A DNA stretch of 64,000 nt from an uncultured Acidobacteriaceae bacterium (GTDB taxonomy: Bacteria; Acidobacteriota; Terriglobia; Terriglobales; Acidobacteriaceae): contig CAVQMQ010000008.1 of NCBI GenBank assembly GCA_963713645.1, forward strand, positions 6,473 through 70,472, written 5' to 3'. Positions 10,036 to 38,044 of this stretch are shown here, one piece after another. Below the pieces are notes generated by a model that searched no databases, was not told where the DNA came from, and saw nothing but the letters and a program-made list of their open reading frames with translations. Every line of letters starts with the position of its first letter. Position 1 is the first letter of the stretch. The position numbers and the translations under genes were made by a program.

Positions 10036-10083
10036 AGCTTTGTTCTACTGCAAAGTATCCAAGCAAAAAACATCTGAGTTGTT

Positions 10084-11427: not shown

Positions 11428-11530
11428 TTGGTTGCGCTCCCTGAGCGGCGGTGTCTTCCGGATGCCAGAAAAATCCCCCGCCAAAGATTTAAGGATAACG
11501 CGGGCGGCTTTCTTGCGTATCCTTATCCGC

Positions 11531-23001: not shown

Positions 23002-24496
23002 TTACTTCTCCGGGGAAGTTGTTTCTTTCATATTCAGGCGGTTCTTGTGGCAGTTGTCGCAGAAGGCCATGTTGTTTTCCTGGTCTTTTACCAACAGGTC
23101 AGCGTGCGATGAGGCATGCGCTTGATGGCAACTGAGGCAACTGAGCGGCGTCTTCACTTTTGTTTGATTCGTCGGGTCCATCACGTCCGAGACAGGATGG
23201 TACTCGACTGGGTGCCCGAGGCCAAAGCGCAAAGGCAGAATAGCCACCTTGTTCTTCTTGTAGTAATCGTCAGGAAGCTTGACCGTGCCGTTAAAGATCG
23301 TCAGCAGATGCTGGTCCGCGACAGGCTGCGGAGCCGAATCCGGTCCGTGGCACTCAAGGCAAAGCGCATTGCCCTTGGCGCGCAGCAGGTGATCGTTGTC
23401 GCCGCCATGCGGAGTGTGGCAAGTTGCGCAGCCTTGCGTAAAGGCGGGCTGATGGTGGAACGGCTTTTTGCCCAGGTCGCCGATGTCGGTGTGGCAGCCG
23501 GTGCAGATGCTCACCGGATCTGTCTTGGGCAGGCCGGGTTCGTTGCTGGCGTGCGGGCTGTGGCAATCGGTGCAGTCGCCTGCCGCGCCGGGGTGCGGCA
23601 CTTTCGCGGAGTCGATGAGCTTGGCTTTGTCGTCGTGGCAGGTAACGCAGAGTGCTTTCACGTCGGTCTGCGTCAGCACGACTTTTCCGTCTTTGGCCGG
23701 CGCGTGGCACATTTCGCAGCTCTTTGCCTCAAAGGGCACATGCTGAAACTTGGCCATCAGCTTGGGCGCGGCGGATTGATGCGGGTCGTGGCACTCCAGG
23801 CAGTTGGCCGTGGCGAAGGGCTGATTCTGATGGGCCTTGGCCAGCTCTGGATCTTTCGCATCGTGGCAATCGAGGCAGAGCGCGGGGGCGGCTTTGGTCA
23901 AATGGAAGCGGTTCTCAACTGTCGGCTCAGCGCCGGTTTTGTGGGTCAGGTGGCAGGCGTCGCAGCCTGCTTCGAGCGCTGCATGGCGGCTGCCCTTCTC
24001 CGGCACATTCAGCCCGGTCTTGTGGCAACTGAGGCAGAGGTTTTCTTTCTCACTGCCCGACATCGGCTTGAGCAACTGATTCTTGTTGTCGCTGACGTGG
24101 GGATCGTGGCAGGTGAGGCAGTCGCGCACCGCCGGCGGATGGACTGTGCCTTTGATGTCGGCGGCTTTTTTATCCGCGTGGCAACTGATGCAGAGCGATA
24201 CCGGCGTCGCGGTGATCAGCTTGACTCGGGTGACATCTTTATTGACGCGGACCTCATGGCAACCGAGGCAGCCGGCGGCCATCGCCGAGTGAACTGACTT
24301 GCCCTTGCTCTTGTCGTCGTGGCACTCCACGCATTTGGCGGCGTCGGTTCTTGGGGTCGAGCGGCACGGGATGAACGGCGGCCGAGGCGCGCGCGGCCAG
24401 CATCGCAAAGAAAATGGCCCAAAGAAAAATCCGCGGCGTGTGACAGCCGGACTTGGCGACCGTTCGGCACCACGCGCGATGAGGAACCAACTGCAT
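23002..24496 (-). CDS. 16-heme c-type cytochrome (paired-CxxCH type); N-terminus separated by a +1 frameshift near 24348
   Basis: 16 CxxCH counted. The signal peptide (IFLWAIFFAMLAARASA-AVHPVPLDPK) lies in another frame from ATG 24496 (GGAG RBS); deleting one base in AAGAACCGAC gives ...PK-TDAAKCVECH. Confidence 0.88.
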
Positions 24497-24514
24497 ACCG
24501 ACTCCGAAACAGGC

Positions 24515-24670
24515 TATAGCGGTTCTCCAATTGGTGTAGAGCGGAGTAGATGCTCTACAGTGGCTTTTTCCTTTCCGGGGTCCCCAGCGACAGGTCTTTG
24601 TCGCTGGGGTGGAAGTAAAAGCCACCCTGCACCATTTCAGCCACCCCACAAGAATTGGAGAACCGCTCAG
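24515..24670. mobile_element. MITE-like repeat, copy A (inverted), with a nested REP hairpin
   Basis: TATAGCGGTTCTCCAATT...AATTGGAGAACCGCTC. The hairpin CCCCAGCGACA-N6-TGTCGCTGGGG (24582-24609) sits in the loop of the central stem. Confidence 0.75.
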
Positions 24671-24766
24671 ATTGCGGGCAGGTTGCCGGCACACGCGGAC
24701 GGGTGCAAGCAACGGAAGAACAACAATTTCTCATGTGTATTAGAAATGGCGGAGGGAATCTGCGAC

Positions 24767-24782
24767 GGTGATTTATATCACA
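24767..24782. promoter_or_regulatory. CRP-type operator
   Basis: GGTGA-tttata-TCACA (9/10 match to TGTGA-N6-TCACA) in the divergent region between the 16-heme and tetraheme-B genes. Confidence 0.55.
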
Positions 24783-24967: not shown

Positions 24968-25831
24968 ATGATTCGAATTATTTTGTTGGTCCTGCTGTTT
25001 CTTGCTACCGCAAGCTTCGCCCCGGCGCAGATCGTGTCGGCGACGACCGATGTGCTGGGCGCGCACCTGAACTATGGCCGGGGTTGCGCGGCCTGCCATG
25101 CTCCGCACAGCGGATCGGAAGGCAACGGCAACACAAAAAAAGCCGACTCCGCTTCCGGCAATTCTATGCTCTGGGGCGAGGATGTGAGCAGCCTCTACGG
25201 CAAGACCATCACTACAGGCGGAGGCAAATTTGTCGAGACGCTGCCCACCAGCATGTCGGCCACTACGCCGGATGTGAACGGAATGCTGACCTGCCTCAGT
25301 TGCCACGACGGCAACTATGCGTCGAGCGCGATGATGAAGAACCAGCTCTATGAGACGCTGCCCGCGAGTTACGGAACGCATAACACCGTGCCCACACTGC
25401 TGGGCAATAACAGCACCGGCGCTGGCAATTATCTCAACGAGCATCCAACAGGACTAAGCGCGGTGATCAAGTGCGGCGGCAACGGCTGGGATTGCTCACA
25501 GGCCAATGGCGTGGTGAGCATGAAGGGCGCGAACTCCAGCCAGTTTGTGGCTAACTACGGATTCTTTGTGCAGCCAGGGAGTTATAACAACAGCGCCGTG
25601 GTGGTTTGCACCACCTGCCACAATCCGCACACGATGAATGTGGTGACGGTAACTCACGGAACGAACTCCGGCCTGCCTGCGGGCAACTACGCGACGATGT
25701 TCTTTTTACGCGGCCCCTATAACCCGAAGGATACTAACTCGCAGTCAAACCAGACGGCGCAGTTCTGCCGCCAGTGCCACGGAGATTTGTCGAATGAGAT
25801 GAATGGCAGCACGGCGGGAACGGTGTTTTAG
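24968..25831 (+). CDS. secreted tetraheme cytochrome c, OmcE-like layout (paralog B)
   Basis: Signal peptide; GAH...CAACHAPH...LW...CLSCHDG...LNEHP...CTTCHNPH...FLR...CRQCH; CAGGAG RBS. Confidence 0.88.
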   Translation: MIRIILLVLLFLATASFAPAQIVSATTDVLGAHLNYGRGCAACHAPHSGSEGNGNTKKADSASGNSMLWGEDVSSLYGKTITTGGGKFVETLPTSMSATTPDVNGMLTCLSCHDGNYASSAMMKNQLYETLPASYGTHNTVPTLLGNNSTGAGNYLNEHPTGLSAVIKCGGNGWDCSQANGVVSMKGANSSQFVANYGFFVQPGSYNNSAVVVCTTCHNPHTMNVVTVTHGTNSGLPAGNYATMFFLRGPYNPKDTNSQSNQTAQFCRQCHGDLSNEMNGSTAGTVF

Positions 25832-26017
25832 TGCCCGGATATACTGATTGCGTTCGGCGGATATTAAAGAATGAAAAGCCTGGAGGGTTATGCTTTCTCA
25901 TGTCCAGAAATGCGAGGGGCATAGGATAGCCATTCTTTGTACTCGATTAGGCCTTTGACACTTGCCTCGATGTGGTATTCTATATTCGCCTGCTCTGGCG
26001 ACTCTGCGCGATCAACT

Positions 26018-26173
26018 ATGAATCATCACCGTATTCGTGCGCCTAAAAGGCGCACCAGAGCAGATTTCGTTCATATCCTCGTGCAAGTAAAGCTCTTCGC
26101 TCTTGAGCTTGCGGCGACGATTCTATTCGTTGTATGGGTTTATCGTGAGCTAATCCATGAACTCCGGCGCTGA
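26018..26173 (+). CDS. putative small membrane protein (51 aa)
   Basis: Basic N-terminus then FVHILVQVKLFALELAATILFVVWVY; TTGACA upstream (25955) and a GC hairpin with T-tract downstream. Confidence 0.4.
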   Translation: MNHHRIRAPKRRTRADFVHILVQVKLFALELAATILFVVWVYRELIHELRR

Positions 26174-26299
26174 GTTCTTCTATACGCAGGTGTTCGAGCT
26201 GGACAGGTGTTGGGCGCCCCGGGCCGAGACATTCGGACCTAGGGCACTGGGTATTGGTCTTCAGGCCCGGGCCTTTTTATCGCGGCAGCTGAATCGAAA

Positions 26300-26466
26300 G
26301 GCCCGCGGCTAAAGCAGGGTTGCTGGTGAGGCTGGATTCGGCGGCCTGAAGGCCGCTGCTCCCTCCGACTTTTTCATTATGCATTGATGGATGGTTAATT
26401 TCTTTAATCTGGAGCGCGGAGTTTGTGCTTTCCCATGTCCCCAAAAGCGAGGGACATGGGGCACCC
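26300..26466. repeat. REP-like hairpins
   Basis: GCGGCC-TGAA-GGCCGC near 26341 and TCCCATGTCCC-CAAAAGCGA-GGGACATGGG-GCACCC (26431-26466). Confidence 0.65.
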
Positions 26467-26533
26467 AGCTTCTATGAAAGATTGAGATGTGGTCCACCCG
26501 CCGGGGGTCTGATCGCCGCGCACCGCCTCGATT

Positions 26534-27052
26534 TCAATAGGCGGCAACGGCTTTCTTGACGATCGGCCGGAGCGTATCCAGGTCTGAGTAGGGGGAACTC
26601 ATAAATATAATGCCCTGGCCCTTTGTGAATACCACGAACAACCCCTGCACCCCTTCTTGGAAGTACGCGAACGCGTGGTCGCCGATTCCGCTTTCATCTC
26701 GGGTATGGAGTACCCTGGCGTCTTTCATGGCATGTGCCCGCATGCGTGTGAACGCTTGCTCCGGACTCTCGCCCTTTTCCGCCTGGACTAAGGAAATACT
26801 TAAGTACGCCGGCGGCTTGCCCTTTTCTGGCGCCATGCACATACAGGTGTACATCCTGGGCGTCAGAGTCGGCGGCTTGGAGGCCTTAAGCAGTACCATC
26901 AGATCGGCTGGCTGCACTAAGCCGCAGAGCTTCTTCGACGTTTCGGTCTCAAACTGCGCGCCAGCCGGACTCGCGCTCAGCAGCGCCGCCAGTATCATAT
27001 TCGCTGCGATCCAGCAGCGCCTGTCTTTATGCGAGTGCACTCGATTTTGCAT
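26534..27052 (-). CDS. secreted hypothetical protein (DUF3558-like cysteine pattern)
   Basis: Signal-like ILAALLSASPAGA-Q, LCGLV...TCMC, GIGDHAF. Confidence 0.55.
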   Translation of the reverse strand: MQNRVHSHKDRRCWIAANMILAALLSASPAGAQFETETSKKLCGLVQPADLMVLLKASKPPTLTPRMYTCMCMAPEKGKPPAYLSISLVQAEKGESPEQAFTRMRAHAMKDARVLHTRDESGIGDHAFAYFQEGVQGLFVVFTKGQGIIFMSSPYSDLDTLRPIVKKAVAAY

Positions 27053-27877
27053 CGGAGCTTCCATGGTTTTCACGCGCACCTCTGCGCAATGCAAGTTGCA
27101 TCGGATAGGAACTCGAAGATTATAGCATTTGGCAGGTGGGCGGGTCCCCGCAAGATCGCTTTGTGTAAGGACCGAAACCGTCGCACTCGGCGGCTATCCG
27201 TCGAGAAAAATGAAAGGCAGCGCCCTTCAAACGGACAGCGATCCTGCGACTGCACCTCCGCGCTCGCCGTCTGCAAGAACATCCTCTCTGCGTTATACCT
27301 CAGCGCCCTCAGTGTCTCTGCGTTTGATTTTTCCTAATCCGGCGTAGTCGGAACCAAAGGGGTTGTGGCTATGATGCGGTGTGGACATCGAACTGCTAAC
27401 GGAAGGCGAGTTTAGAATCGGACGCTCGAAAAACCCGTTCCCTGTCGTCAAGAGCTGTGCCCCCTCAGCTCCCCACGGGCTGACCTGCCTCCCACTGGTT
27501 GGAAATTTGGTAGCATTTTGGTAACAAATACCGCCGACTGGGCCGGTTTTGCAGGTTTATCCGTCTCATAAGTCTCATTAGGGTATAAATATACTTGACA
27601 AACCAATGGTGAGGGTTAAAGCGTGACACCGCTTGAAAACACGCTTACCTTTTGGTTCTGCAGCAAATAGGTTTGTCTACGCCGTAGAAATGAGCAAATT
27701 TATGAAGGAACTGCCGGAGCATGTGATAGCTCCACCTACGCACGCGGATGGTGAGTCAAGTATATATATGCCGTTCTAACGAACTGATTTTATTTATTCA
27801 TGCGGATTATGAATCAGTATCTTGTACAGTTCGACGGCGAGTTGTCCCACTCACGATCTTCAGATAGAAGCCGCCCC

Positions 27878-28020
27878 CTACTCCGTCCACGGATCGAGCA
27901 GCTTCACTGGAGTCCCTTGCACATCGCGGATATTCCGCGTAACCAGCGTCAGATCGTGCTGTACGGCGGTTGCTGCCAGCAGCGTGTCCACAAGAGGTCT
28001 TGGCCGCACCCCTGACCAAT
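27878..28020 (-). pseudogene. C-terminal remnant of a PIN-domain (VapC-like) toxin
   Basis: RPRPLVDTLLAATAVQHDLTLVTRNIRDVQGTPVKLLDPW is a PIN C-terminal motif; the N-terminal half is absent and a REP hairpin lies just upstream. Confidence 0.75.
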
Positions 28021-28060
28021 CTCCTATAGCCTGGCGTCGGGATCGGGAAACGTCTGTGGT

Positions 28061-28094
28061 TTCCCAGGTCCCAAAAAGCGGAACCTGGGAGACC
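28061..28094. repeat. REP-like hairpin
   Basis: TTCCCAGGTCC-CAAAAAGC-GGAACCTGGGA-GACC, same family as 26431 and 61798. Confidence 0.65.
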
Positions 28095-28107
28095 ATTTAT
28101 TCCGCGC

Positions 28108-29187
28108 TCAAAAATACGCGCAGGAATCGGTGTATGTTCCTCCGTTGGAGTAGGCGGCTGAGCTTAAGTCCCACTTCAGGCTGATGCCATCTCCCTTTCC
28201 TTCGACCGTTACCGAGACAGAAGCACTTCCAACGAAGGCCACGTCGCCATCTGTTTGAGCAATCGTCCGGCTTGTACTGCCCGTTGTTCCGGTAACGCCC
28301 TTATTGTCATGACCAAAGTGGTATCCAGGCCACCCACTTCCGCTGGAGGTATTGCTGAGAGCAAACGGCTGCGGCTTGCAACTGGTATCGCAGGTAATGC
28401 CGGCCTGCTGCTCCCCCAGACTCAAGGTCCACACGGTAATCCCGTAAATATCCTTACCGGTTGCGTCGTAATGAGCCCATGTATAAGTCAGGCCATAGTC
28501 CTTGGGGTGGCTCGCAAGACCGCATGTCCCCTTTGCTTCAGAGGTGGCGTCAGACGCAGGCTGCCGGGAGGTAGTGGCATTTGCGGGCTGGGTTAGATAT
28601 GTCACCCGCGGCCCCCATCCTTCCGCCTTCAGGCGAAGGCGGGTTTCGACCTTCGTCTGCAGGTAGTCCACGACCGGATCAAGCACCGCGCAGTGATCGA
28701 GTCCGGACCAGCAGAACTCCAGCGCTTCGTGGGAGCGCTGATCTCCGCCGATGGTTGCGCTTACCTGAAGGAGGCGATAGGAACCGTCTTCAAGAGGAAG
28801 CCCGAAGTCGGCGAACCTGTCTGCCTGATCTTCCATGTTGCGTTGCCCGTAGGCCGGATCTTCCGGCACGGCAAAACGGGGATTGCTGAGAATGGTTCCG
28901 GTCTGGTCGGCAAGGATGCGGTACTCGGGCACCGTGATCAACGTGTTAAAAGGCTTGCCTGCAAGGGCCGTCATGTCGCCGGACTCGAGCGTCTCTACGC
29001 TGAAGGAAATCGCTCCGGAGGTTGCAGTGGCGTACTCATTGTAGAGTCCTTCCGCATAATTGGCGACGAGCGGAGGTTGCGTGAAAGCGAGGGTTGGTTT
29101 CAGGGCTTGCTGCGTTCTGGCGATCGGCCCACTGGCCAAAAGTGAGACGAGCAGAATTCCGGTCACGTTCCAATTTGTGCTGTTCAT
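28108..29187 (-). CDS. secreted hypothetical protein (359 aa, 6 Cys)
   Basis: ATG with GAGAGG RBS, signal peptide, Gly/Ser/Thr-rich beta-type C-terminal half; no family recognised. Confidence 0.7.
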   Translation of the reverse strand: MNSTNWNVTGILLVSLLASGPIARTQQALKPTLAFTQPPLVANYAEGLYNEYATATSGAISFSVETLESGDMTALAGKPFNTLITVPEYRILADQTGTILSNPRFAVPEDPAYGQRNMEDQADRFADFGLPLEDGSYRLLQVSATIGGDQRSHEALEFCWSGLDHCAVLDPVVDYLQTKVETRLRLKAEGWGPRVTYLTQPANATTSRQPASDATSEAKGTCGLASHPKDYGLTYTWAHYDATGKDIYGITVWTLSLGEQQAGITCDTSCKPQPFALSNTSSGSGWPGYHFGHDNKGVTGTTGSTSRTIAQTDGDVAFVGSASVSVTVEGKGDGISLKWDLSSAAYSNGGTYTDSCAYF

Positions 29188-29245
29188 AGGAACCTCTCCA
29201 TTTTCGGATTGTGATGGTCACGGATTGTGGGTGGACGCGGATTAC

Positions 29246-29362
29246 TAGAGCGGTTCTCCAATTTCTGTGGAGTAGCTGAAATTGTGCAAGGTGACTTTTT
29301 CTTGAGTAAAAAGTCACTTGAGTACATCAATTCCGCTCTACACCAATTGGAAAACGGCTATA
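29246..29362. mobile_element. MITE-like repeat, copy C
   Basis: TAGAGCGGTTCTCCAATT...GTGACTTTTTC-TTGA-GTAAAAAGTCAC...TCCGCTCTACACCAATTGGAAAACGGCTATA. Confidence 0.75.
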
Positions 29363-29687
29363 GCCGCGCCTTGGGTTCTGAAACCAGGCAACTGCAAAGC
29401 AAGGTTTTTAGTTAATTGCACTACAGATAGGGGAAGATGGAGCAGACACTGCTTTGTTCCCGTGCAGGGCCAATAGGAACGATGCTTCGTGAATCTGGGT
29501 TGCGTTGGCGTGTCAAGCGCTGACTAAGGAGGTCCAGCTAGTCACAGACTGTACCCTGGAAGGTTCTGGATGTCAAGACGGACATTTGTGTGCACAGGGG
29601 CAAATAGGACGCGGTGTCACTCACCATTTAGGCTTAAGCCGTTCTAATCTATGGCTACACTACTCCTTGACTCGCGGTGATAATTTC

Positions 29688-31574
29688 TTATTTTTTTACG
29701 CCGACAATTTTGCGCACGCTGGTTTGCGTGACGGAGCCGTCGGCGTTATGCGCGGCCTGGTGGCAGACCATGACACAGGTGTTGGCGGTGCGGTTGTAGC
29801 TGATGGGCAGGCCGCCGTTCGAGGCCACTACGTTGACATCGAAATTGATCAGCCGCTCACCGGTGATGGTTCCGCTGGTGGCTCCCATGCCGTGAGCGGT
29901 GTGGCACGCAGAGCAACTGAAGCCGGAGTTGATGTGGGTGCTGTGCTGGCTCCAACTGGTGTTTTTGATGATCTGGTTTCCGAGGTCGTGGCATTTGCCG
30001 CAGAGACCGTAAGGTCCGTTGACGCTGAGATCGGGATTGGGAAAGAGATTGTTGATGAGCTGGCCAGGTGCGGCGGCCTGGCTGAACTCGTAGCGGCGTT
30101 CGAGGATATGCGTCCAGCGCGAGCCGTGCGGACCATTGGAGCCAATGCCGCCGAACTCGCGGTTGTCATCGCTGTTGTGGCAGTCGGAGCAGAGAATCTG
30201 CGTACCCATAGCTCGGCCCTGCGTAGCTCCGTCAAGGTTGAGCATATTGGTCAGCAGGCTGGGCTGGGTGAGCGTGCTGTTGTTCGTATGCGTGACCGGA
30301 TGGCTCGATGTGGCCGTGGCCGCGAACTGCGGAATCTGGTTGAGCGGGTCACCGGCTGAGACGGCGCGGACCGGGAAGTAGCCGTAGATGGGCTGCACCT
30401 GCTTGCCCGAGCTTGTGCCGTGGCAGCGCAGGCAGCTTTCATATTGGTTGACGGCGGGGGTGAGGACGGTGATGCCGTCGGTGGCGCTGATGCCCGCCGC
30501 GTCTTTTTGCGAAACGCGAATCGCCGGAGCGGGCGGGAATGTGCCGACAACCTCGGACCCGTGGGCGCTGTGGCAATCGACGCAGGTGGCGTGGCGGTTG
30601 TTGTTGAGCAGCGTGCTCTCGGCGGCGTCGTGCGGGTTGGCCGAGGTGGGGAAGGGATGGCCCACCTTTGGCGTGGCGTACTCGGCAAAGACGTTGGCGT
30701 AGGTGGGCATCGGCGAGACGTTCGCGCCATTGTGGCAGGCGATGCAGTCCTGCTCGTTCGGTCCGCGCAAAATGCGCGATGCCCCGGCTGCATTGTGTGG
30801 CGCGTGGCAGGCGATGCAAGCTGCTCCGGCGACGGCTGGATAGCTGCCCAGCAACGCGGTTGGAGAAATTTTATCGGTCGAAAGAGCATGGGCGCTGATG
30901 GCCCAGTCAGCGAGCGGGTTGACGTGGCCGCTCAACTGGCGGGTGGGGTCGTGACAAGCGAGGCAAAGCTGGCCGCTGGAGCTATCTTTTACGAGAAAGT
31001 TCAGCGAGACAGTGTCTTTGGCCTGGACGTGGGGATTGTGGCAAGAGGAGCACTCGACATTGCCCTTGATCAGCTTGACCGCGCCGGTGGGGTCGGCGGT
31101 TTTGCCGCCGGCGGCAAGCGTTGCAACGAGGTCGATATTGTCTTTGAGAGGCGTGACCAGGCTGAAGGGGTGTGAGTTCTGCAGGTTGCTGCCAAAAACA
31201 TCCGTGGAGTACATCGATCCATGCGTGGTGACTTGGCCGTAGACCACCGTAGTGCCAAGAGCAACGGTACCGTCGTGGCAACTGAGGCACTGATTGCTGT
31301 CAGCGCCGAGAGTAGGCTGGCGGCTTTTATTTGTTTCAGTATCGCTGCTGTAGACGGAGTAGGTCTGCGTGGTGAGCTTCTGGTTCCACAGTCCGCGATT
31401 GAGTCCTGAGTGGGGCGCGTGGCAGTAAGCGCAGGCATCGGGGCGCGCGCCGGTGATGGGCGACTTGCTGCCGGGGCCGAAGCTATGCATGCCCATCACG
31501 TCGCCGGAGATTTGCGCGGAGAGCGCGCTGGCGGAAGCAAGAAGCAAAAAAGAGCAAAGAAACCGGAGGTTCAC
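29688..31574 (-). CDS. secreted 12-heme cytochrome c with an N-terminal OmcE-like tetraheme module
   Basis: Minus strand confirmed from the sequence (GTG at 31574, TAA at 29688-29690). 11 CxxCH plus a terminal CVMVCH; start overlaps the upstream NHL stop (GTGA). Confidence 0.9.
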   Translation of the reverse strand: MNLRFLCSFLLLASASALSAQISGDVMGMHSFGPGSKSPITGARPDACAYCHAPHSGLNRGLWNQKLTTQTYSVYSSDTETNKSRQPTLGADSNQCLSCHDGTVALGTTVVYGQVTTHGSMYSTDVFGSNLQNSHPFSLVTPLKDNIDLVATLAAGGKTADPTGAVKLIKGNVECSSCHNPHVQAKDTVSLNFLVKDSSSGQLCLACHDPTRQLSGHVNPLADWAISAHALSTDKISPTALLGSYPAVAGAACIACHAPHNAAGASRILRGPNEQDCIACHNGANVSPMPTYANVFAEYATPKVGHPFPTSANPHDAAESTLLNNNRHATCVDCHSAHGSEVVGTFPPAPAIRVSQKDAAGISATDGITVLTPAVNQYESCLRCHGTSSGKQVQPIYGYFPVRAVSAGDPLNQIPQFAATATSSHPVTHTNNSTLTQPSLLTNMLNLDGATQGRAMGTQILCSDCHNSDDNREFGGIGSNGPHGSRWTHILERRYEFSQAAAPGQLINNLFPNPDLSVNGPYGLCGKCHDLGNQIIKNTSWSQHSTHINSGFSCSACHTAHGMGATSGTITGERLINFDVNVVASNGGLPISYNRTANTCVMVCHQAAHNADGSVTQTSVRKIVGVKK

Positions 31575-32641
31575 CTGGTTCCTCCGGCAGCGGATTTTTT
31601 CAGAGCCGCGTATTGAAAGACCTGAACGCGGCGATTAAACGAATCGACGACGAAGACGTGATCGGATGAATCGATGAAGAGGCCGGAGGGCAACTGAAAC
31701 TGGCCGGCGTGGGTTCCTGCTTCGCCGAAGTTATAGAGGAGTTCTCCTTGGCGGTTGAAGACCTGCACCATGCCCCACTGGGCATCGACGATGTAGAGAT
31801 CGCCTTCAGAGTCCGCGCTGACGGCTTTGGGGCGGAAGATTGCGCCGGGCGAGTCGCCGAGCTTGCCAATGGCGTACTGGAATGCGCCGGAGCGGTCGAA
31901 GACCTGGATGCGGAAGTTCATGGCATCGACGACGATGAGGTTGGGTCCGTCGAGGCGCAACTCGGTGGGGAGATTGAATTCGCCGTCGGCCTGGCCGGAT
32001 TTGCCGATGGTCTGAAGGACGCGGCCTTCCATGTCGAGAACATAGACCTGGTCGCGCAGCGTGTCCGTCACATAGATGCGCTGGGCTGCGGAGTCAACGG
32101 CGATGCCAGTGGGACGCTTGAAAAAACCTTCGCCTTTGACGCTCCCGAGGACGCGGAGGAATTTGCCGCTGGGTGCGAAGACGAAGATCTTGCCCGCGTC
32201 GGAGTCAGTGACATAGATATTGTCCTGGGCATCGACGGCGATGCACTGCGGGGTGCGCATCGGGTTTTTGTCTTTCTCGTTGCGCTCGATGAATTTGTAT
32301 TTGCGCTCGGTGAAGTCGAAGATATGCACGCCCTCTGCGCCAGGATCGGTGACAAGGATGCGGCCGTGGGAGTCAACGGCGATGCTGTAGGGGCGGACGA
32401 GAGAGTGATAATCGGGCGCGCCGGCGATCACATCAACGAGCTTGTTCCAGAAGCCGCGATTGGGCTTGACTTCAAACTCAGAGCTGAAATTGCGCTGCCA
32501 GGTGAGCTTGCGGCCGCCATCGAGCGACATCTCCCACTGCTCGGGCGTTGTGGCGTGGGGCTTGTTTGCCGCGGTTGCGCAGAGCGGAGTGAGCGCGATG
32601 ACGGCCAGCAACAGGGCCGCGCGCTGAGGTTCCCGCCGCAT
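31571..32641 (-). CDS. secreted NHL-repeat beta-propeller protein
   Basis: Signal peptide; RPYSIAVD, RPTGIAVD, LPTELRLD, RPKAVSAD, LPSGLFID repeats; ATG 5 nt after the barrel stop. Confidence 0.9.
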   Translation of the reverse strand: MRREPQRAALLLAVIALTPLCATAANKPHATTPEQWEMSLDGGRKLTWQRNFSSEFEVKPNRGFWNKLVDVIAGAPDYHSLVRPYSIAVDSHGRILVTDPGAEGVHIFDFTERKYKFIERNEKDKNPMRTPQCIAVDAQDNIYVTDSDAGKIFVFAPSGKFLRVLGSVKGEGFFKRPTGIAVDSAAQRIYVTDTLRDQVYVLDMEGRVLQTIGKSGQADGEFNLPTELRLDGPNLIVVDAMNFRIQVFDRSGAFQYAIGKLGDSPGAIFRPKAVSADSEGDLYIVDAQWGMVQVFNRQGELLYNFGEAGTHAGQFQLPSGLFIDSSDHVFVVDSFNRRVQVFQYAALKKSAAGGTR

Positions 32642-32646
32642 CGCTC

Positions 32647-34500
32647 TCAGAAGAAGTTGAACCAACGCGAGACTCCGATATAGAACGAGGATACAACCTG
32701 CGGCGCTGTGCCGGAGGTGCTAAAGCCCTGCTCGATGCGGGCGAAACCGCTGTTGAAATTCAACTTGCGGAATTGGTACTGCACCAGGGTATTGAACTGG
32801 TTGCTCTGGTTGGTGGAGGAGATCGAGTTGCTGAATGTATTGCTGAGGGATTTGGAATAGGCCGCCGCGATGACGAATTTCTTCACCGGCGTGCTCGATA
32901 GTCCAATGGAATAACTGTTGCCGCCGAAGAGGCTGACCAGATCAGAGTCGCTGGTCGTCGTGCCAACCGGAACTGGCACCAGCCCGGAGCCGGTTTCAAG
33001 AGCCTGTCCGCTGGCTTTGGAGTAGCTGCCAGTAGCGGTGATCAGCGGTCCATAGCCGATGCTGGCGTTGTAACTCTGGCTGCTGTTGGCGGTGCCTGCA
33101 TCTTCAGTCAAACCTGTGCGCGAGGCTCCCGCGCCGGCGCTCACGTTGAATTTTCCCCAGCGGCGGCGGGCATTGGCCGAGTAGTTATAGAAGGAGTTCG
33201 TATAGGTGACGAGCAGAGTCTGAACATTCTGGGCGTAGCCGAAGGAGCCGTTGACCTGCCAGCCAAGAAGCTGCTTGGAGTAGTTTTCCGTGGTTGAAAA
33301 TCCCAGGGAGTTTTCTCCGGTTTTTTCGGCGGTATTTTCAGTCACCGTCATTGCCGCGTTGAAGGTGCCGTCGAGCAGCGCATAAGCGTAGGTTGCGCTT
33401 GCGCCGTAGGATTGCACGCCGTAGTCTTGGCCGAGGTAGGATTGGGAGCGGCGTTCGGCGAAGACAGACCCCTGCAGATCGGCGAGCGGAGCGTAACTCG
33501 CTACCGCCAGCAGATCGAGCGAGTTGGAGGACTGGTCTGAATCTGTTCCGGAGACCACGCCGCCAGCCGCGACGACGGACTGCTCCAATTGCCCGGCGAG
33601 ATTGTCAGAGTAATTCGCGCTGACCGAGACGGTGAGCTTGCCGGCGGGATGCACGGCAGCGAGGGCGTTCATCATGTCAATGGTTCCGCTAGAGCCTGCG
33701 CCGAGGTATTCGCTGTTCCAACTGGAGCGGTTGATGCCGGCGGAGACTGAGCCTTTGAGGGGCAGAACATGCGAGACATTGAAGCCGAGGGCGCTGCTGC
33801 TGGACTTAGATTCTGAATCCGCTTCGCCGGAGACGACTTCGGGGATGAGCGCATGGCCGCCGCCGAGGGAATAATAGGCGCCCATGACGAAGCCCGCGTA
33901 TTTATAGCCGGAGTGCAGGTTGAGGGAATGGAATGCGTTTTGTCCCTGATCGCTGGTTCCGTAGACGGAATACTGGCTCGAGCCCATCTGGAATCCGGCG
34001 GAAAAACTTGGCGCGTCTGGGAGGTTCTCGCTCCAGTTGAAGCCGAAGGTATCGCTGTTGCCGTGGGTGACGTAATTGGCCATGCCGGGCACGGCGTAGT
34101 TGCCCTCGCTGTTGTAGGCCTTGGAATAGTTGATGGAACCGGGGAAGCGGCTGCCGCCGAAGATGTTGGCGGAGGCATCGATGCCACTGGCATCGGAGAT
34201 GGACTGGAAGTTGGAATTGGCCCGCGATTGATTCAGGTAGAGACCGACATTGAAGGAAAGAAAATTCGGGTTGTAATAGGAGCCGTTGAAATTGGCTGCT
34301 CCGCCGACGGTCCAGGTATGATCGGAAGCCGTCTGATTGCCGTAATCGGCGGTATAACCCGGCGCAATCGTGCCACTCAGGTCGGTGCTGAAGTCGCCGA
34401 ATTTGATTTGTGCGCTGGCCGGAAAAGCGAGCAGCAGAAACCCAGCCAGCAGGAAAGATGCTGCGGGCCAGGAATTCGTTGCTGTGCGACTGCTGTGCAT
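32647..34500 (-). CDS. outer-membrane beta-barrel protein (617 aa)
   Basis: Signal peptide, many alternating-hydrophobic Ser/Gly/Tyr-rich strands, no Cys, C-terminal aromatic signature IGVSRWFNFF. Confidence 0.82.
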   Translation of the reverse strand: MHSSRTATNSWPAASFLLAGFLLLAFPASAQIKFGDFSTDLSGTIAPGYTADYGNQTASDHTWTVGGAANFNGSYYNPNFLSFNVGLYLNQSRANSNFQSISDASGIDASANIFGGSRFPGSINYSKAYNSEGNYAVPGMANYVTHGNSDTFGFNWSENLPDAPSFSAGFQMGSSQYSVYGTSDQGQNAFHSLNLHSGYKYAGFVMGAYYSLGGGHALIPEVVSGEADSESKSSSSALGFNVSHVLPLKGSVSAGINRSSWNSEYLGAGSSGTIDMMNALAAVHPAGKLTVSVSANYSDNLAGQLEQSVVAAGGVVSGTDSDQSSNSLDLLAVASYAPLADLQGSVFAERRSQSYLGQDYGVQSYGASATYAYALLDGTFNAAMTVTENTAEKTGENSLGFSTTENYSKQLLGWQVNGSFGYAQNVQTLLVTYTNSFYNYSANARRRWGKFNVSAGAGASRTGLTEDAGTANSSQSYNASIGYGPLITATGSYSKASGQALETGSGLVPVPVGTTTSDSDLVSLFGGNSYSIGLSSTPVKKFVIAAAYSKSLSNTFSNSISSTNQSNQFNTLVQYQFRKLNFNSGFARIEQGFSTSGTAPQVVSSFYIGVSRWFNFF

Positions 34501-34577
34501 ACTGCCTTGAATCTCATTCCCTTATCCGGTATCGCTTGCCGTCCGACTTTCAATGCAGCGTTGCCGGTTGCCTCTTG

Positions 34578-34694
34578 TAGAGCGGTTCTCCAATCGGTGT
34601 GCCCTTGCCAACACTGTGCAGGTGGCTTTCTCTTCGGGAAGAAAGCCACTCAGCGGTAGTGGTTTCGGTGTACTGCAATTGGAGAACCGCTGAG
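34578..34694. mobile_element. MITE-like repeat, copy D (diverged)
   Basis: TAGAGCGGTTCTCCAAT...GTGGCTTTCTC-TTCG-GGAAGAAAGCCAC...AATTGGAGAACCGCT. Confidence 0.7.
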
Positions 34695-34730
34695 GGCCAG
34701 CGCCTGGAATCCAGGCGCGTTTCGCATTGC

Positions 34731-35756
34731 TTACAGAATCTCGACCTTCGTGCTCTGCCGCAGCTTTTTATCCAGGTCGGCGCGCAGGTCGTTTTTCTTC
34801 TTCTCGTGCAGTTCTTTTTCCAGTTGCGCTTTCACCTCTTCAAATTTCGCTTTGCCTGCCGGGGTGTGCACGTTGAGGTGAACGATGGTGTAGGCCTGAT
34901 CCATCTGGATGAGATCGCTGACATCGCCGGGCTTCATTGCCGCGAGAGCCTTGATCACCTGCGGGGCAAGCTGGTCAACAGGAAGAGGCTTATGCTGGCC
35001 CATCATTACGCGGTAATCGTCGTCAGAGAGCTTCTCGGCGAGCAGGCCAAATTCCTCCGCTGTCTTTGCGGCTTTCGCTTGTTGCAGCGCCTGCTCGGCG
35101 CGCTTGCGGCCTTCCTTCGACTGATCGGCGGTGGCGTTTGGGGGAGGGAGAACGGAAATCGTCTGGAAGGTGTAGGACTCGGGGTGCTGGAATCGGGATG
35201 GATTCTTTTCGTAGTAAGCCCGCAGTTCTTCCGGCGTGACACTGCTCCTGCTTTCTACTTCAATTTTCAGAAAGGCTTCAATCAGCAGCGAGCGGCGAAT
35301 CTTCTCTTCGAGCAATTTTTCAGAACCGTGAAAGTCGGCCTGCAGGGATGCGTTGAATTCTTCGGGGGTTGCGTATTGCTTGCGGAAATCCTCTTCGGCA
35401 TGTTGCAGCTTCGCTGCGGGCACGGTCATCTTGCGGCGCTGCGCTTCCTGATAGACCATCTCTTCGAAGACGATCATCTTCAGCGCGCCATCGCGGATCT
35501 GAGATTCCAGTTCTTTGGGGACGCCGTTGTGTTGGCGGGCGTAGGGAAAGATCGCATATTCTTCGCGGACCAGATCGGCATCGGTGAGGACCGTGCCGTT
35601 GACGCGCGCCACGGGCTTATCCGCGATCTGCGTGAGCGCATTCGGCTGCTGTGTAGCTTGCTGCTTGAGGACGGTTGGTGCGTGAGAGGCCACCTGTGCG
35701 TCGGCAGCGGTGAGTGCCAGCAGAAGGAATCCGCAAGTTGTGAGTTTGTGCATCAT
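34731..35756 (-). CDS. SurA/PrsA-like peptidylprolyl isomerase (parvulin) chaperone
   Basis: Signal peptide, KPVARVNG, SurA-N-like helices, YYEKN..RF, F..LA..LSDD, KPGDVSDLI. Confidence 0.85.
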   Translation of the reverse strand: MMHKLTTCGFLLLALTAADAQVASHAPTVLKQQATQQPNALTQIADKPVARVNGTVLTDADLVREEYAIFPYARQHNGVPKELESQIRDGALKMIVFEEMVYQEAQRRKMTVPAAKLQHAEEDFRKQYATPEEFNASLQADFHGSEKLLEEKIRRSLLIEAFLKIEVESRSSVTPEELRAYYEKNPSRFQHPESYTFQTISVLPPPNATADQSKEGRKRAEQALQQAKAAKTAEEFGLLAEKLSDDDYRVMMGQHKPLPVDQLAPQVIKALAAMKPGDVSDLIQMDQAYTIVHLNVHTPAGKAKFEEVKAQLEKELHEKKKNDLRADLDKKLRQSTKVEIL

Positions 35757-35795
35757 GGTGGACCTTCAGATTCCGGTTTCCGTCGAGTGTTTTGC

Positions 35796-35826
35796 AAAAA
35801 AATGGGGAGGGAAACTGCCCCTCCCC
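35796..35826 (-). terminator. intrinsic terminator directly after tetraheme paralog A
   Basis: Minus strand GGGGAGGG(G)-CAGTTT-CCCTCCCC-A-TTTTTTT, 16 nt after the stop codon. Confidence 0.8.
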
Positions 35827-35842
35827 GTTCTATGCAGGTCGA

Positions 35843-36712
35843 TTAGAAGGTTGTGACAGCGGTGCTGCCGTTCATTTCGTTGGACTCGCCACCGTGGCAC
35901 TGGCGGCAGAACTGCGCGGTCTGGTTGCTGTTCGCAGTGCCGCTGGCCGGGTTGTAGGGTCCGCGCAGGAAGAACATGGTCGCGTAGTTGCCGCTGGTCA
36001 GGCCGGACTTCGGTCCGTTGGTGACCTTGACCACGTTCATCAAGTGCTGGTTGTGGCAGGTGGTGCAAACCACAACGGGCTGGTTGTTATAGGTGCCAGG
36101 CGAGACAAAGAATCCGTAGTTGGTGACGAAGAGGCTGGAGCCCGCTCCGTTCATCTGCACCGCGCCCGTCGCGCTGATGGTGCAATCCCAGTTGTACTGG
36201 CCGCCGCAACCCATGACGGCATTGAGTCCTACCGGGTGATCGTTGAGGTAGTTGCCGGTGGTGGTGCCGTCGTTGCCGAGCAGGGTTGGGATGGTGTTGG
36301 CGGTACCGTAGGTGGCGGGCAGGGTCTCATAGACCTGGTTCTTCATCATGGCACCCTGCGCGTAGTTGCCGTCGTGGCAGCTGAGGCAGGTGAGCAGGCC
36401 GGAAACGTCAGGCGTGATGGCCGCCATGCTGGTGGGCAGGACTTCTACATCAGCTCCGCCGCCAGTGGTGATGGTTTTGCCGTAGAGGCTACCGACATCC
36501 TCGCCCCAGAGAGCGACGTTGCCCGAGGTTGGATCGGCGGTCTTGGCGTTGCCGTTGCCGTATGCGCCACTATGTGGGGCATGACAGGCAGCGCAGCCGC
36601 GGCCGTAATTGAGATGTGCGCCGAGTACGTCGGTAGACGGCGTGGTGATCTGGGCCGCCGCAAAGCCGGCGCCTGCCAGAAACATCAGGGAGATTAAAGA
36701 AATGCGTTTCAT
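35843..36712 (-). CDS. secreted tetraheme cytochrome c, OmcE-like layout (paralog A)
   Basis: AGGAGG RBS, signal peptide; GAH...CAACHAPH...LW...CLSCHDG...LNDHPV...CTTCHNQH...FLR...CRQCH; exactly 8 His in the mature chain. Confidence 0.9.
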   Translation of the reverse strand: MKRISLISLMFLAGAGFAAAQITTPSTDVLGAHLNYGRGCAACHAPHSGAYGNGNAKTADPTSGNVALWGEDVGSLYGKTITTGGGADVEVLPTSMAAITPDVSGLLTCLSCHDGNYAQGAMMKNQVYETLPATYGTANTIPTLLGNDGTTTGNYLNDHPVGLNAVMGCGGQYNWDCTISATGAVQMNGAGSSLFVTNYGFFVSPGTYNNQPVVVCTTCHNQHLMNVVKVTNGPKSGLTSGNYATMFFLRGPYNPASGTANSNQTAQFCRQCHGGESNEMNGSTAVTTF

Positions 36713-37002: not shown

Positions 37003-37226
37003 CGTGAGTCCCATCACCCTGTGTAATGCAGATAGCCGTGGATTAAGGCTTCCGCACACACTCGACATGCTCCCTGTATTTATTCAGGTGACAAGAGTCA
37101 CCCTCTGTGATGTGAGTCACGCATGGTAATTAAAGGCTTCTTTGTGATAGTCATCACACGCCTGCGTGATGCAGAGTGCCTGCCGGATTTTCCCTCCCCG
37201 CTAAAGTAATTGTGAGCAGTCTCACA
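37003..37226. promoter_or_regulatory. array of five CRP-type operators
   Basis: CGTGA-N6-TCACC (37003), GGTGA-N6-TCACC (37087), TGTGA-N6-TCACG (37106), TGTGA-N6-TCACA (37143), and AAT-TGTGA-N6-TCACA-TTT (core at 37211). Confidence 0.75.
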
Positions 37227-37249: not shown

Positions 37250-38044
37250 ATGGTCAACGAGGCACCAACAGCGATCAAAGCAATTCCCACACTGAAGACG
37301 GTGCAGGTTTACACGATGGCTGGGTTGTGCTTGCTGGGCGGGCTGGCGACGGGTTATTTGCTGGGGGGATCTCATGCGCCGGCTGCTCCTGGGCAACCGG
37401 CGTCCGTCGCCGCAACGGCTCCGGTTCTGCCAAGCGCGGCCAATGCTGCACAGATGCCGGGACTCGCAGAGATGAAGCAGGGAACGGCTGTGCAGGCGCA
37501 ACCGGCTTCAGGCGCAGTACGGTCTCCGCATACTGGCAGCGTGGCAAGCGGCGGACGGATGCCCAGCCTGCAAGAGATGAAGCAGATGGCCGACAAACAG
37601 GCCGCGCCGCTGCTCGAAAAGCTGAAGAGCGATCCCAACAACGGCGCATTGCTGGTGCAGGTGGGAGGCATTTATCATTCGACGCACCAGTTCGCCGAGG
37701 CGGTTGCCTATTACGGCAAAGCCGTGCAGGTTGAGCCGAAGAACGTTGACTATCGCACAAAGCTGGCGATCAGCATCTATCGAGGCGGCGACGCGGATGG
37801 AGCGATCGCTCAACTGAATCAGACGTTGAGTATCGACCCCAAGAACGCGAATGCTCTCTTCAACCTGGGTATGATCCGGTTGCAGGGCAAGCAGGACGGC
37901 AAGGGCGCGTTGGCAGCCTGGCAGATGTTGCTCAAGTCCAATCCGCAATTGAGTCCCGACCGCAAGGCGGCTGTACTGAAACTGATGGCCGATGTGATGA
38001 CGACGCTTGGCGAAGAGCCGGGAACGCGAGGCGCAAAGCAATGA
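37250..38044 (+). CDS. membrane-anchored TPR protein
   Basis: N-terminal TM (VYTMAGLCLLGGLATGYLL), Pro/Ala linker, TPRs (DPNN, EPKNV, DPKNANALFNLG). Confidence 0.85.
   Translation: MVNEAPTAIKAIPTLKTVQVYTMAGLCLLGGLATGYLLGGSHAPAAPGQPASVAATAPVLPSAANAAQMPGLAEMKQGTAVQAQPASGAVRSPHTGSVASGGRMPSLQEMKQMADKQAAPLLEKLKSDPNNGALLVQVGGIYHSTHQFAEAVAYYGKAVQVEPKNVDYRTKLAISIYRGGDADGAIAQLNQTLSIDPKNANALFNLGMIRLQGKQDGKGALAAWQMLLKSNPQLSPDRKAAVLKLMADVMTTLGEEPGTRGAKQ

What the first reader, a model, noticed from the sequence alone, without database searches (positions are those of the whole stretch)
24968..36712. Two paralogous tetrahemes with the OmcE-type ligand blueprint
Seen: both proteins (24968-25831 and 35843-36712; about 70-75% identical by eye) follow H...CxxCHxPH...LW...CxSCHDG...LN(D/E)HP...CxxCHxxH...FLR...CxxCH. 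Paralog A has exactly four non-motif His for four hemes, so all can be bis-His. Both keep an extra Cys pair (CGGxxxWDC/CGGxxWDC), a possible disulfide that would suit an extracellular protein. Known: OmcE has this motif order as I recall it, and polymerises with one axial His supplied by the neighbouring subunit. Inference: these are filament subunits, possibly an OmcS/OmcT-like pair giving alternative or mixed filaments.
Basis: partly seen in the sequence, partly recalled or inferred. Interest (0 to 1): 0.86.

Follow-up and report, generated by a model that had tools for sequence, protein, structure and literature searches.

The report
Paired OmcE-like nanowire cytochromes, Acidobacteria
The two genes encode four-haem proteins that are distant relatives of OmcE, the subunit of Geobacter's conductive protein "nanowires". 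They sit in the matching assembly gene cluster of a soil/peat acidobacterium, so this abundant group may also build such wires, although no filament has been shown.

Summary
Window 24968-25831(+) and 35843-36712(-) encode secreted tetrahaem c-type cytochromes that are 73% identical. Both have the pattern H..CxxCHxPH..LW..CxSCHDG..(D/E)HP..CxxCHxxH..F..CxxCH.

A profile of the family finds, as its two best PDB matches, the only two solved OmcE filaments: 9YUQ (E 2.5e-13) and 7TFS (E 2.8e-4). Profile-profile comparison with true OmcE genes gives 99.4% probability (E 1.5e-21).

The neighbours match the published minimal omcE cluster: two multihaem cytochromes, two NHL propellers and a large MtrB-like barrel, plus a SurA-like chaperone. 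The gene order recurs in about 55 Terriglobia loci and in a Nitrospirota locus holding a true OmcE.

The 35843 copy is the ancestral in-operon gene and is followed by a conserved terminator hairpin, as true omcE genes are. The 24968 copy comes from one old duplication, kept in at least 12 species and under purifying selection.

Polymerisation, and which His crosses between subunits, could not be tested: the AF2 model was poor and Foldseek found nothing. The family differs from OmcE in three ways: a shorter N-terminal arm, a longer stretch between haems 3 and 4, and a conserved 16-residue C-terminal tail.

Verdict: a new member of a known kind. A 2026 preprint probably already describes the cluster, but not the tetrahaem-nanowire link.

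The parts
35843..36712 (-). tetB (P0002, 289 aa): the in-operon OmcE-family tetrahaem cytochrome, at the position of omcE and first gene of tetB-surA-barrel-NHL-M628
   Evidence: 4 CxxCH, exactly 4 distal His; OmcE homology; conserved position; ancestral-type copy
24968..25831 (+). tetA (P0001, 287 aa): the duplicated OmcE-family tetrahaem cytochrome. It is transcribed on its own and lies divergent from M468-NHL432
   Evidence: monophyletic tetA-type clade, 100/99 support, 13 species; all ligands kept; dN/dS about 0.10
35804..35826 (-). Intrinsic terminator/attenuator hairpin (GGGGAGGGG..CCCTCCCC followed by T7), 17 nt after the tetB stop and before the surA-like gene
   Evidence: The same hairpin plus T-run follows most tetB-type and single-copy (in-operon) tet genes among the 81 scanned (47 of 81 positive overall) and is mostly absent after tetA-type copies. 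Bona fide omcE genes carry a strong terminator at the same distance in 16 of 27 loci
34731..35756 (-). SurA-like periplasmic PPIase/chaperone (341 aa)
   Evidence: Rotamase_2, SurA_N; always follows tet; also follows OmcE in the Nitrospirota and several proteobacterial loci
32647..34500 (-). Large outer-membrane beta-barrel (617 aa, ends ..WFNFF), the candidate porin/secretion pore
   Evidence: AF2 pLDDT 77, about 28-30 long antiparallel strands. Best PDB fold match is MtrB of the Mtr complex, 6r2q_B, E 1.7e-10, TM 0.49. hhalign to barrels of true-OmcE clusters gives 87% probability, E 4e-6
31571..32665 (-). NHL-repeat beta-propeller (364 aa)
   Evidence: 30-43% identical propellers flank bona fide omcE genes
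29688..31574 (-). M628: a 12-haem cytochrome (11 CxxCH plus CVMVCH). Its first ~210 residues form a complete canonical OmcE module, making it a candidate filament base or adaptor
   Evidence: hhalign to the OmcE profile: 99.9%, E 3.5e-32, all four haems; haem count; best OmcE-profile hit in the genome; shares the N-terminal DV(L/I/M)GxH motif with the tetrahaems
23002..24408 (-). M468: a 16-haem periplasmic-type cytochrome resembling MtrA/DmsE. In this genome the signal-peptide part lies in another frame (see the passing notes)
   Evidence: DmsE family, 170 bits, below the 192 cut-off; 16 CxxCH
21691..22989 (-). NHL-repeat beta-propeller (432 aa)
37250..38697 (+). Two TPR proteins (264 and 218 aa), divergent from tetB. 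They are conserved beside the cluster in the two-copy genomes and some others
   Evidence: TPR; weak CcmH/CycH-type TPR
37106..37226 (.). Three CRP/FNR-type TGTGA-N6-TCACA boxes in the tetB/TPR divergent promoter; a fourth (1 mismatch) lies at 24767-24782 upstream of tetA
   Evidence: 5 sites in the window against 1.3 expected; 4 of them lie at the two tetrahaem promoters

Best explanation
Both genes encode secreted, all-bis-His tetrahaem c-type cytochromes. They belong to a divergent subfamily of the OmcE nanowire-cytochrome family that is restricted to one acidobacterial family.

They are the OmcE equivalents of a conserved seven-gene omcE-type cluster, ordered: 16-haem cytochrome, NHL propeller, tetrahaem, SurA-like chaperone, MtrB-like barrel, NHL propeller, then a 12-haem cytochrome with an OmcE module.

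Proposed mechanism (inferred):
1. The 16-haem protein carries electrons through the barrel.
2. The 12-haem protein's OmcE module sits at the cell surface.
3. The tetrahaem polymerises on it, head to tail, into an insulated haem wire. As in OmcE, one of its four conserved distal His completes a haem of the neighbouring subunit.

tetB (35843-36712) is the ancestral major-subunit gene. It leads the operon and is followed by an attenuating terminator. tetA (24968-25831) is an old duplicate with its own promoter. It keeps every ligand and probably serves as an alternative, or possibly co-polymerising, subunit.

Shown: the homology, the cluster orthology, the history of the duplication and purifying selection. 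Inferred: export, polymerisation, and the division of labour between the two copies.
For: 1. Sequence. The family profile's two best PDB hits are the only solved OmcE filaments: 9yuq_N at E 2.5e-13 and 7tfs_A at E 2.8e-4 (9YUQ is confirmed as D. soudanensis OmcE). hhalign against 25 bona fide OmcE sequences gives 99.4%, E 1.5e-21. The OmcE profile run over the whole 6.2-Mb genome finds only M628, tetB (9e-10) and tetA (2.5e-7) as real hits.

2. Same eight axial His in the same local contexts in both families.

3. Context. The operon M468-NHL-tet-SurA-barrel-NHL-M628 occurs in about 55 of 80 loci. True omcE loci show MHC-MHC-NHL-OmcE-barrel(-NHL). The Nitrospirota locus L113 has the same order including SurA. 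This meets the published definition of the minimal omcE cluster and the filter used to call nanowire-competent OmcE homologues (PMC13712944).

4. The barrel resembles MtrB.

5. A terminator hairpin lies 35-50 nt after the subunit gene, both here and after true omcE genes. This is the arrangement typical of genes for major filament subunits.

6. The duplication is a single event with both copies retained, at dN/dS of about 0.10 and 0.15.

7. tet and the barrel are the fastest-evolving parts of the cluster, as expected for surface-exposed components.
Against: No structural or experimental evidence for polymerisation exists. The AF2 model is poor (pLDDT 54.5) and Foldseek finds nothing.

The subfamily departs from both solved OmcEs where it may matter for subunit contacts:
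- The N-terminal His lies 7 residues before haem 1, not about 19.
- There are 48 residues between haems 3 and 4, not 20.
- There is a conserved 16-residue C-terminal tail (..SNE..T.F), where OmcE ends 2 residues after haem 4.

Four distal His for four haems could also all be satisfied within one subunit.

The neighbouring M628 carries a more canonical OmcE module than the tetrahaems do.

In this genome the 16-haem gene looks frameshifted at its 5' end, so the system may be impaired here, or the assembly may be wrong.

The NHL proteins show no clear lipobox, unlike the 'propeller lipoproteins' of Desulfuromonadia (read by eye).

Confidence: 0.6

Rival explanations
1. The tetrahaems are OmcE homologues that do not polymerise. 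They would be monomeric outer-surface or released cytochromes that dock on the barrel/M628 complex and pass electrons to soluble or particulate acceptors, a role like MtrC or OmcA.
For: Four distal His suffice for four haems within one subunit. The N-terminal arm is shortened and a C-terminal tail is added relative to filament-forming OmcE. Petersen et al. note that OmcE-like tetrahaem genes are widespread and that not all need form wires. The barrel and the 16-haem protein look like a classical Mtr-type conduit.
Against: The genes pass the neighbourhood filter used to pick nanowire-competent homologues. The terminator after the gene implies very high expression relative to the machinery, as for true omcE. 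The dedicated chaperone and two propellers are conserved with the gene.
Confidence: 0.22
2. The filament, if there is one, is nucleated or built from the canonical OmcE module of M628. The tetrahaems would then be caps, tips or adaptors rather than the repeating subunit. The two paralogues could be the two different ends.
For: The first ~210 residues of M628 match the OmcE profile far better than the tetrahaems do (E 3.5e-32 against 1e-9). In several proteobacterial loci the only OmcE-like unit is fused to 7 further haems. M628 and the tetrahaems share the N-terminal DV(L/I/M)GxH motif. The published discussion of the omcE cluster asks for anchor and tip proteins.
Against: A 628-aa protein with a 400-residue extra domain is an unlikely repeating unit of an OmcE-type wire. 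The tetrahaem, not M628, sits in the omcE position and carries the terminator. True-OmcE clusters in other Acidobacteriota MAGs contain both a free OmcE and an M628-like protein (loci L106, L110, L122). Only two residues differ consistently between the tetA and tetB clades, which argues against two distinct structural roles.
Confidence: 0.1
3. They are periplasmic electron shuttles or quinol-dehydrogenase-type tetrahaems (CctA/NrfH-like), unrelated to extracellular structures.
For: There are weak sub-threshold hits to the CctA and NrfH models: 28 bits against cut-offs of 180 and 134.
Against: The hits are far below the cut-offs and cover only single haem motifs. The protein has no membrane anchor. 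OmcE homology and cluster orthology are strong.
Confidence: 0.03

Closest known systems
OmcE tetrahaem nanowire cytochrome (G. sulfurreducens, PDB 7TFS; D. soudanensis WTL, PDB 9YUQ)
   Same: A secreted protein with four CxxCH motifs and four conserved distal His in the same order and local motifs (N-terminal H, CxxCHxPH, LW, CxSCHDG, (D/N)HP, CxxCHxxH). Profile-level homology is clear. The gene sits in the same position of the cluster and is followed by a terminator.
   Different: About 25% identity, not found by single-sequence search. The mature protein is about 267 aa against about 200. The N-terminal His lies 7 rather than about 19 residues before haem 1. There are 48 rather than 20 residues between haems 3 and 4. 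A 16-residue conserved C-terminal tail ends in an aromatic residue. Many members carry an extra Cys pair. The family is restricted to one acidobacterial family. Polymerisation is not shown.
Minimal omcE nanowire gene cluster of Desulfuromonadia (Petersen et al., mBio 2026, PMC13712944)
   Same: [quoted passage not shown]
   Different: A SurA-like PPIase is added, as it also is in Nitrospirota and some Pseudomonadota OmcE loci. The barrel is about 615 aa rather than about 750 aa and is related to the Geobacter barrels only through intermediates. One of the multihaems carries its own OmcE module. There is no glycosylation island. The paper lists five phyla and does not include Acidobacteriota.
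'EET1' porin-scaffold-cytochrome cluster of peat Terriglobales (Fiorito et al., bioRxiv 2026, 10.64898/2026.05.27.727921)
   Same: Probably the same cluster. It is described as a conserved, syntenic porin plus scaffold plus multihaem cytochrome system in Terriglobales MAGs, with 'OmcE-like' models, and it is transcribed in deep peat.
   Different: The main text does not mention a tetrahaem, nanowires or filaments: 'tetraheme' and 'nanowire' occur 0 times, and 'filament' occurs only for cable bacteria. The cytochromes it models have 8-13 haems. Identity of EET1 with this cluster is my inference and was not checked against its supplementary data.
OmcS/OmcT paralogue pair of Geobacter (from my own knowledge)
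   Same: Two closely related nanowire-type cytochrome genes in one locus, one of them in the main position.
   Different: A different family (hexahaem). Here the second copy is divergently oriented and has its own promoter. No data exist on which copy is made.
MtrCAB porin-cytochrome conduit (PDB 6R2Q)
   Same: The best fold match of the barrel is MtrB. The 16-haem protein gives sub-threshold DmsE/MtrA-family hits.
   Different: No MtrC-type cytochrome is present. NHL propellers, a chaperone and OmcE-type units are added.

Membership tests
OmcE-type tetrahaem nanowire cytochrome | Secreted protein with exactly four CxxCH haem-binding motifs | tested here: met
   80 of 81 family members in the fetched loci have four.
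OmcE-type tetrahaem nanowire cytochrome | Four conserved distal His in the order: N-terminal H, CxxCHxPH, (D/N)HP, CxxCHxxH | tested here: met
   H33, H47, H159 and H221 are invariant or >=90% conserved. They match the OmcE-family invariants H32, H57, H158 and H210.
OmcE-type tetrahaem nanowire cytochrome | Significant sequence or profile similarity to experimentally solved OmcE filaments | tested here: met
   hmmsearch against PDB: 9yuq_N at 2.5e-13 and 7tfs_A at 2.8e-4 are the top two hits. hhalign gives 99.4%, E 1.5e-21 over 155 columns covering haems 1-3. A single-sequence phmmer search found nothing.
OmcE-type tetrahaem nanowire cytochrome | [quoted passage not shown] 2026 for nanowire-competent homologues) | tested here: met
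   the criterion is quoted.
OmcE-type tetrahaem nanowire cytochrome | Compact OmcE architecture: about 20 residues between haems 3 and 4, chain ending 2 residues after haem 4, N-terminal His about 19 residues before haem 1 | tested here: not met
   The values here are 48, 16 and 7 residues respectively. This marks a distinct subfamily.
OmcE-type tetrahaem nanowire cytochrome | OmcE fold and haem-chain geometry | tested here: inconclusive
OmcE-type tetrahaem nanowire cytochrome | Polymerises into a filament, with one haem completed by a His of the adjacent subunit | not testable with these tools
Mtr-type porin-cytochrome conduit | MtrB-like barrel of about 26 strands sheathing an MtrA/DmsE-family multihaem cytochrome | tested here: inconclusive
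   The barrel's best fold match is MtrB, E 1.7e-10, TM 0.49. M468 scores 170 bits on the DmsE family model, below its 192-bit cut-off. The complex was not modelled.
Archaeal extracellular cytochrome nanowires (AvECN, PcECN) | Sequence similarity to the solved archaeal tetrahaem filaments | tested here: not met
   Neither appears among the PDB hits at E<=10 with the family profile. Likeness at the fold level could not be assessed.

The most novel reading that the evidence does not exclude
Many genera of the dominant soil and peat family Acidobacteriaceae (sensu GTDB) would build OmcE-type cytochrome nanowires. One clade would keep two interchangeable or co-polymerising subunit genes under CRP/FNR-type control, giving wires with different surfaces or potentials. 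The 12-haem protein with its own OmcE module would act as the long-sought base or anchor that joins the wire to an Mtr-like porin conduit. This would provide the molecular route for respiration of particulate organic matter in peat.
Probability: 0.3. Interest if true: 0.8.

Novelty: new member of a known kind. Interest (0 to 1): 0.6.

Why it matters
Cytochrome nanowires have been solved from only a few organisms. The latest survey of OmcE homologues lists five phyla and does not include Acidobacteriota.

This subfamily is present in 31% of sampled genomes (43% of genera) of one large acidobacterial family, and it has thousands of metagenomic members from peat and soil. [quoted passage not shown] That bears on how carbon is respired without methane in peat.

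The locus also offers testable candidates for two open questions about OmcE wires. The first is what anchors the wire to the cell: here the candidate is the 12-haem protein with a canonical OmcE module and the same N-terminal motif. The second is what exports it: here the candidates are the MtrB-like barrel, the SurA-like chaperone and the propellers.

The retained paralogue pair is a natural experiment on subunit exchange.

Tried and rejected
- Single-sequence phmmer against PDB: no hit at E<=10.
- Pfam and NCBIfam: only generic multihaem models, all either generic or below cut-off.
- AF2 of mature tetA with a 47-sequence alignment: pLDDT 54.5. Foldseek against PDB gave only noise.
- Direct BLASTP of the barrel against the Nitrospirota barrel: nothing. 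Direct hhalign of the acidobacterial barrels against the Geobacter barrels: 5.8% probability. Only the link through intermediate barrels works.
- I looked for a conserved ninth His that would mark one paralogue as an 'anchor' in the sense of Petersen et al. The extra His of tetA (138, 230) are not conserved. An inserted His found in 9 of 12 tetB-type orthologues is absent from this genome's tetB. Rejected for this locus.
- I looked for fixed differences between the paralogue clades and found only two (A210/P212 and P220/Q222). There is no evidence of a changed ligand set.
- The Wang et al. 2022 OmcE paper could not be read, so the identity of the donated His in OmcE was not verified.
- The CctA/NrfH-type shuttle reading was rejected.

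Full report
**What is there.** Window 24968-25831 (+) encodes tetA (P0001, 287 aa). Window 35843-36712 (-) encodes tetB (P0002, 289 aa). The two are 73% identical over their full length with two one-residue gaps. Each has a Sec signal peptide ending A-x-A|Q and four CxxCH motifs. tetB has exactly four further His (33, 47, 159, 223). tetA has six (33, 47, 138, 159, 221, 230). Both carry one extra Cys pair: CGGNGWDC in tetA and CGGQYNWDC in tetB. The own genome (6.2 Mb, 98.7% complete) holds only these two copies.

**The family.** A word-indexed search found 3816 homologues, named where named at all as Terracidiphilus or other Terriglobia MAG proteins. An exhaustive search of 50%-identity representatives found 385 clusters. 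In an alignment of 31 members down to about 32% identity, the conserved positions are H33, the four CxxCH, P46-H47, D114-G115, H159-P160, Y197, H221, F266 and E277. That gives exactly four conserved distal His for four haems. In whole-genome sampling the family occurs in 7 of 401 genomes drawn across the phylum, all seven from the window's own family. Within that family it occurs in 125 of 401 genomes and 61 of 142 genera, and about 30 of those genomes have two or more copies. It is therefore a patchily distributed accessory trait of one large acidobacterial family.

**Homology to OmcE.**
- A single-sequence search of PDB finds nothing.
- A profile of the family finds 9yuq_N (E 2.5e-13) and 7tfs_A (E 2.8e-4) as its two best hits.
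- 7TFS is the G. sulfurreducens OmcE filament. 9YUQ is the D. soudanensis OmcE bundle. These are the only solved OmcE wires.
- I fetched 80 loci with bona fide OmcE relatives, using the 7tfs_A stretch printed as the query, and aligned 25 of their proteins.
- The invariants of that set are H32, CxxCHxPH, W66, CxSCHDG, H158-P159, CxxCHxxH and CxxCH. This is the same blueprint as in the tetrahaems.
- Profile against profile gives 99.4% probability, E 1.5e-21, over 155 columns spanning haems 1-3.
- The OmcE profile run over the whole own genome finds, as real hits, only the N-terminus of the neighbouring 628-aa cytochrome (2.6e-31), tetB (9e-10) and tetA (2.5e-7).

**Differences from OmcE.**

| Feature | This family | OmcE set |
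|---|---|---|
| N-terminal His to first haem Cys | 7 residues | about 19 |
| Between haems 3 and 4 | 48 residues | 20 |
| Tail after the haem 4 His | 16 residues | 2 |

The 16-residue tail is conserved (..SNE..T.F/Y). The Cys pair is present in 53 of 81 members.

**Gene context.** tblastn of the window's proteins against 80 related loci shows one dominant, single-strand operon: M468 (16 haems), NHL propeller, tet, SurA-like PPIase, 610-640-aa barrel, NHL propeller, M628 (12 haems). It occurs in about 55 loci (domains; haem counts).

[quoted passage not shown] The authors used a barrel plus a propeller as their filter for nanowire-competent homologues (PMC13712944).

In the true-OmcE loci, the window's NHL and M468 proteins find relatives directly upstream of omcE. 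In several non-Geobacter loci, the second NHL, M628 and SurA find relatives downstream. The Nitrospirota locus L113 reads MHC, NHL, OmcE, SurA-like, 612-aa barrel, membrane protein, NHL, OmcE-like, MHC. That is the acidobacterial order.

The window's barrel folds with pLDDT 77 into about 28-30 long strands. Its best PDB match is MtrB of the Mtr complex (E 1.7e-10, TM 0.49). By profile it is related to the barrels of true-OmcE clusters from Acidobacteriota and Nitrospirota (87%, E 4e-6). Those barrels are in turn related to the Geobacter barrels (93%, E 4e-7). The direct comparison with the Geobacter barrels fails.

**The 628-aa neighbour.** Residues 1-235 of M628 match the OmcE profile along its whole length, haem 4 included (99.9%, E 3.5e-32). 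M628 is thus a canonical OmcE module fused to eight more haems. Across the family, M628 and the tetrahaems start, right after the signal peptide, with the same motif D-V-(L/I/M)-G-x-H. This fits both proteins docking by the same N-terminal arm, and it makes M628 a candidate base or adaptor. That reading is inference.

**The paralogue pair.** In a maximum-likelihood tree of 80 family members, the tetA-type copies form one clade (support 100/99, 13 species). This clade sits beside the tetB-type copies of the same Terracidiphilus-like genomes, and the whole group has support 92/98.
- There was therefore one old duplication, and both copies were kept.
- tetB-type genes keep the ancestral place ahead of the surA-like gene.
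- tetA-type genes lie on the other strand between M628 and M468, which have been rearranged relative to the common operon.
- Both clades keep every Cys and every conserved His, and only two positions differ consistently between them.
- Median dN/dS is about 0.10 for tetA-type and 0.15 for tetB-type pairs. dS is saturated, so these values are rough. Within the window, tetA against tetB gives dN 0.19 and dS 1.2.
- An independent tandem duplication is seen in L048. Some genomes have three copies.

**Transcription signals.** A strong hairpin plus T7 lies 17 nt after the tetB stop, at 35826-35804 on the minus strand. The same hairpin, with a conserved GGGGAGRGG stem and a T-run, lies 35-50 nt after most tetB-type and single-copy (in-operon) tet genes; 47 of the 81 tet genes scanned were positive overall. 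It is mostly absent after tetA-type copies. Bona fide omcE genes carry a strong terminator at the same distance in 16 of 27 loci. A terminator between a subunit gene and its assembly genes is the usual way to make far more subunit than machinery. CRP/FNR-type boxes cluster at both tetrahaem promoters: 37106, 37143, 37211 and 24767.

**What could not be shown.** AF2 of mature tetA without haems gave pLDDT 54.5, and Foldseek found nothing. The literature says these programs find nothing even for OmcE itself apart from close homologues. Polymerisation, the donated His and the cellular location therefore remain inferences.

**Literature.** Petersen et al. (mBio 2026) report OmcE homologues in five phyla and do not name Acidobacteriota. 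Fiorito et al. (bioRxiv 2026) describe a conserved, transcribed 'porin-scaffold-cytochrome' cluster (EET1) in peat Terriglobales, with 'OmcE-like' cytochromes of 8-13 haems. Their main text mentions no tetrahaem or nanowire. EET1 is very probably this cluster. The cluster is thus already in the literature, but the tetrahaem-OmcE link and the paralogue pair are not, as far as the searchable library shows.

**Verdict.** The pair is a divergent OmcE subfamily, a new member of a known kind, of moderate to good interest.

Noticed in passing
window 29688-31574 (-): The 628-aa cytochrome is a complete canonical OmcE module (residues ~20-210) fused to eight more haems, with a terminal CVMVCH. It matches the OmcE profile better than the tetrahaems do and shares their N-terminal DV(L/I/M)GxH motif across the family.
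   Followed up: yes
window 24337-24361 (-), within 24254-24712 / 23002-24408: The 16-haem gene looks frameshifted at its 5' end. The signal peptide and the conserved 'AVHPVPLD.KN' start lie in one frame (ORF 24254-24712), while the haem domain ('TDAAKCVECH...') lies in another. Relatives L004, L009, L012, L017, L025 and L041 are continuous. This is either a real defect or an assembly error.
   Followed up: partly
window 35804-35826 (-) and the equivalent place in the L003-L080 loci: The sequence of the terminator stem (GGGGAGRGG / CCYCTCCCC) is itself conserved over deep branches of the family, not just the presence of a hairpin.
   Followed up: partly
window 37106-37226 and 24767-24782: Four of the window's five TGTGA-N6-TCACA sites (<=1 mismatch; 1.3 expected) lie in the two tetrahaem promoters, which suggests shared CRP/FNR-family control.
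   Followed up: partly
window 25832-29687: In most two-copy relatives (L004, L009, L010, L016, L036) tetA and M628 are convergent neighbours 20-200 nt apart. This genome, and its 95% relative L006, has a ~3.9-kb insert at that point. The insert holds two secreted proteins with no Pfam or NCBIfam match (26534-27094 and 28108-29187) and a short ORF that looks by eye like the C-terminal end of a PIN/VapC toxin (27878-28096; no Pfam hit).
   Followed up: partly
L106, L110, L122 (Acidobacteriota MAGs), L155 (Bryobacteraceae): Canonical OmcE proteins, 33-40% identical to G. sulfurreducens OmcE, occur with NHL, barrel, M628-like and M468-like neighbours in other Acidobacteriota MAGs. This phylum is not among the five listed in the 2026 mBio survey.
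   Followed up: no
L113 (Nitrospirota MAG) 192-13365: One locus holds three OmcE-like tetrahaems (2733-3458, 9569-10255, 11633-12454), a SurA-like gene, a 612-aa barrel and a 715-aa polytopic membrane protein that looks by eye like a family-39-type glycosyltransferase.
   Followed up: no
tetB-type orthologues in L003-L019 (alignment column 90): Nine of 12 tetB-type orthologues have an inserted His after residue 85, which would be a ninth His. This genome's tetB and all tetA-type copies lack it.
   Followed up: no
L048 10001-12162; G652:C1:136819-140866; G704:C25: Independent tandem duplications or triplications of the tetrahaem gene occur in other lineages.
   Followed up: no
window 21691-22989 and 31571-32665: Neither NHL propeller shows a clear lipobox: one has no Cys in its signal peptide and the other reads 'LTPLC'. 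This differs from the 'beta-propeller lipoproteins' described for Desulfuromonadia omcE clusters.
   Followed up: no
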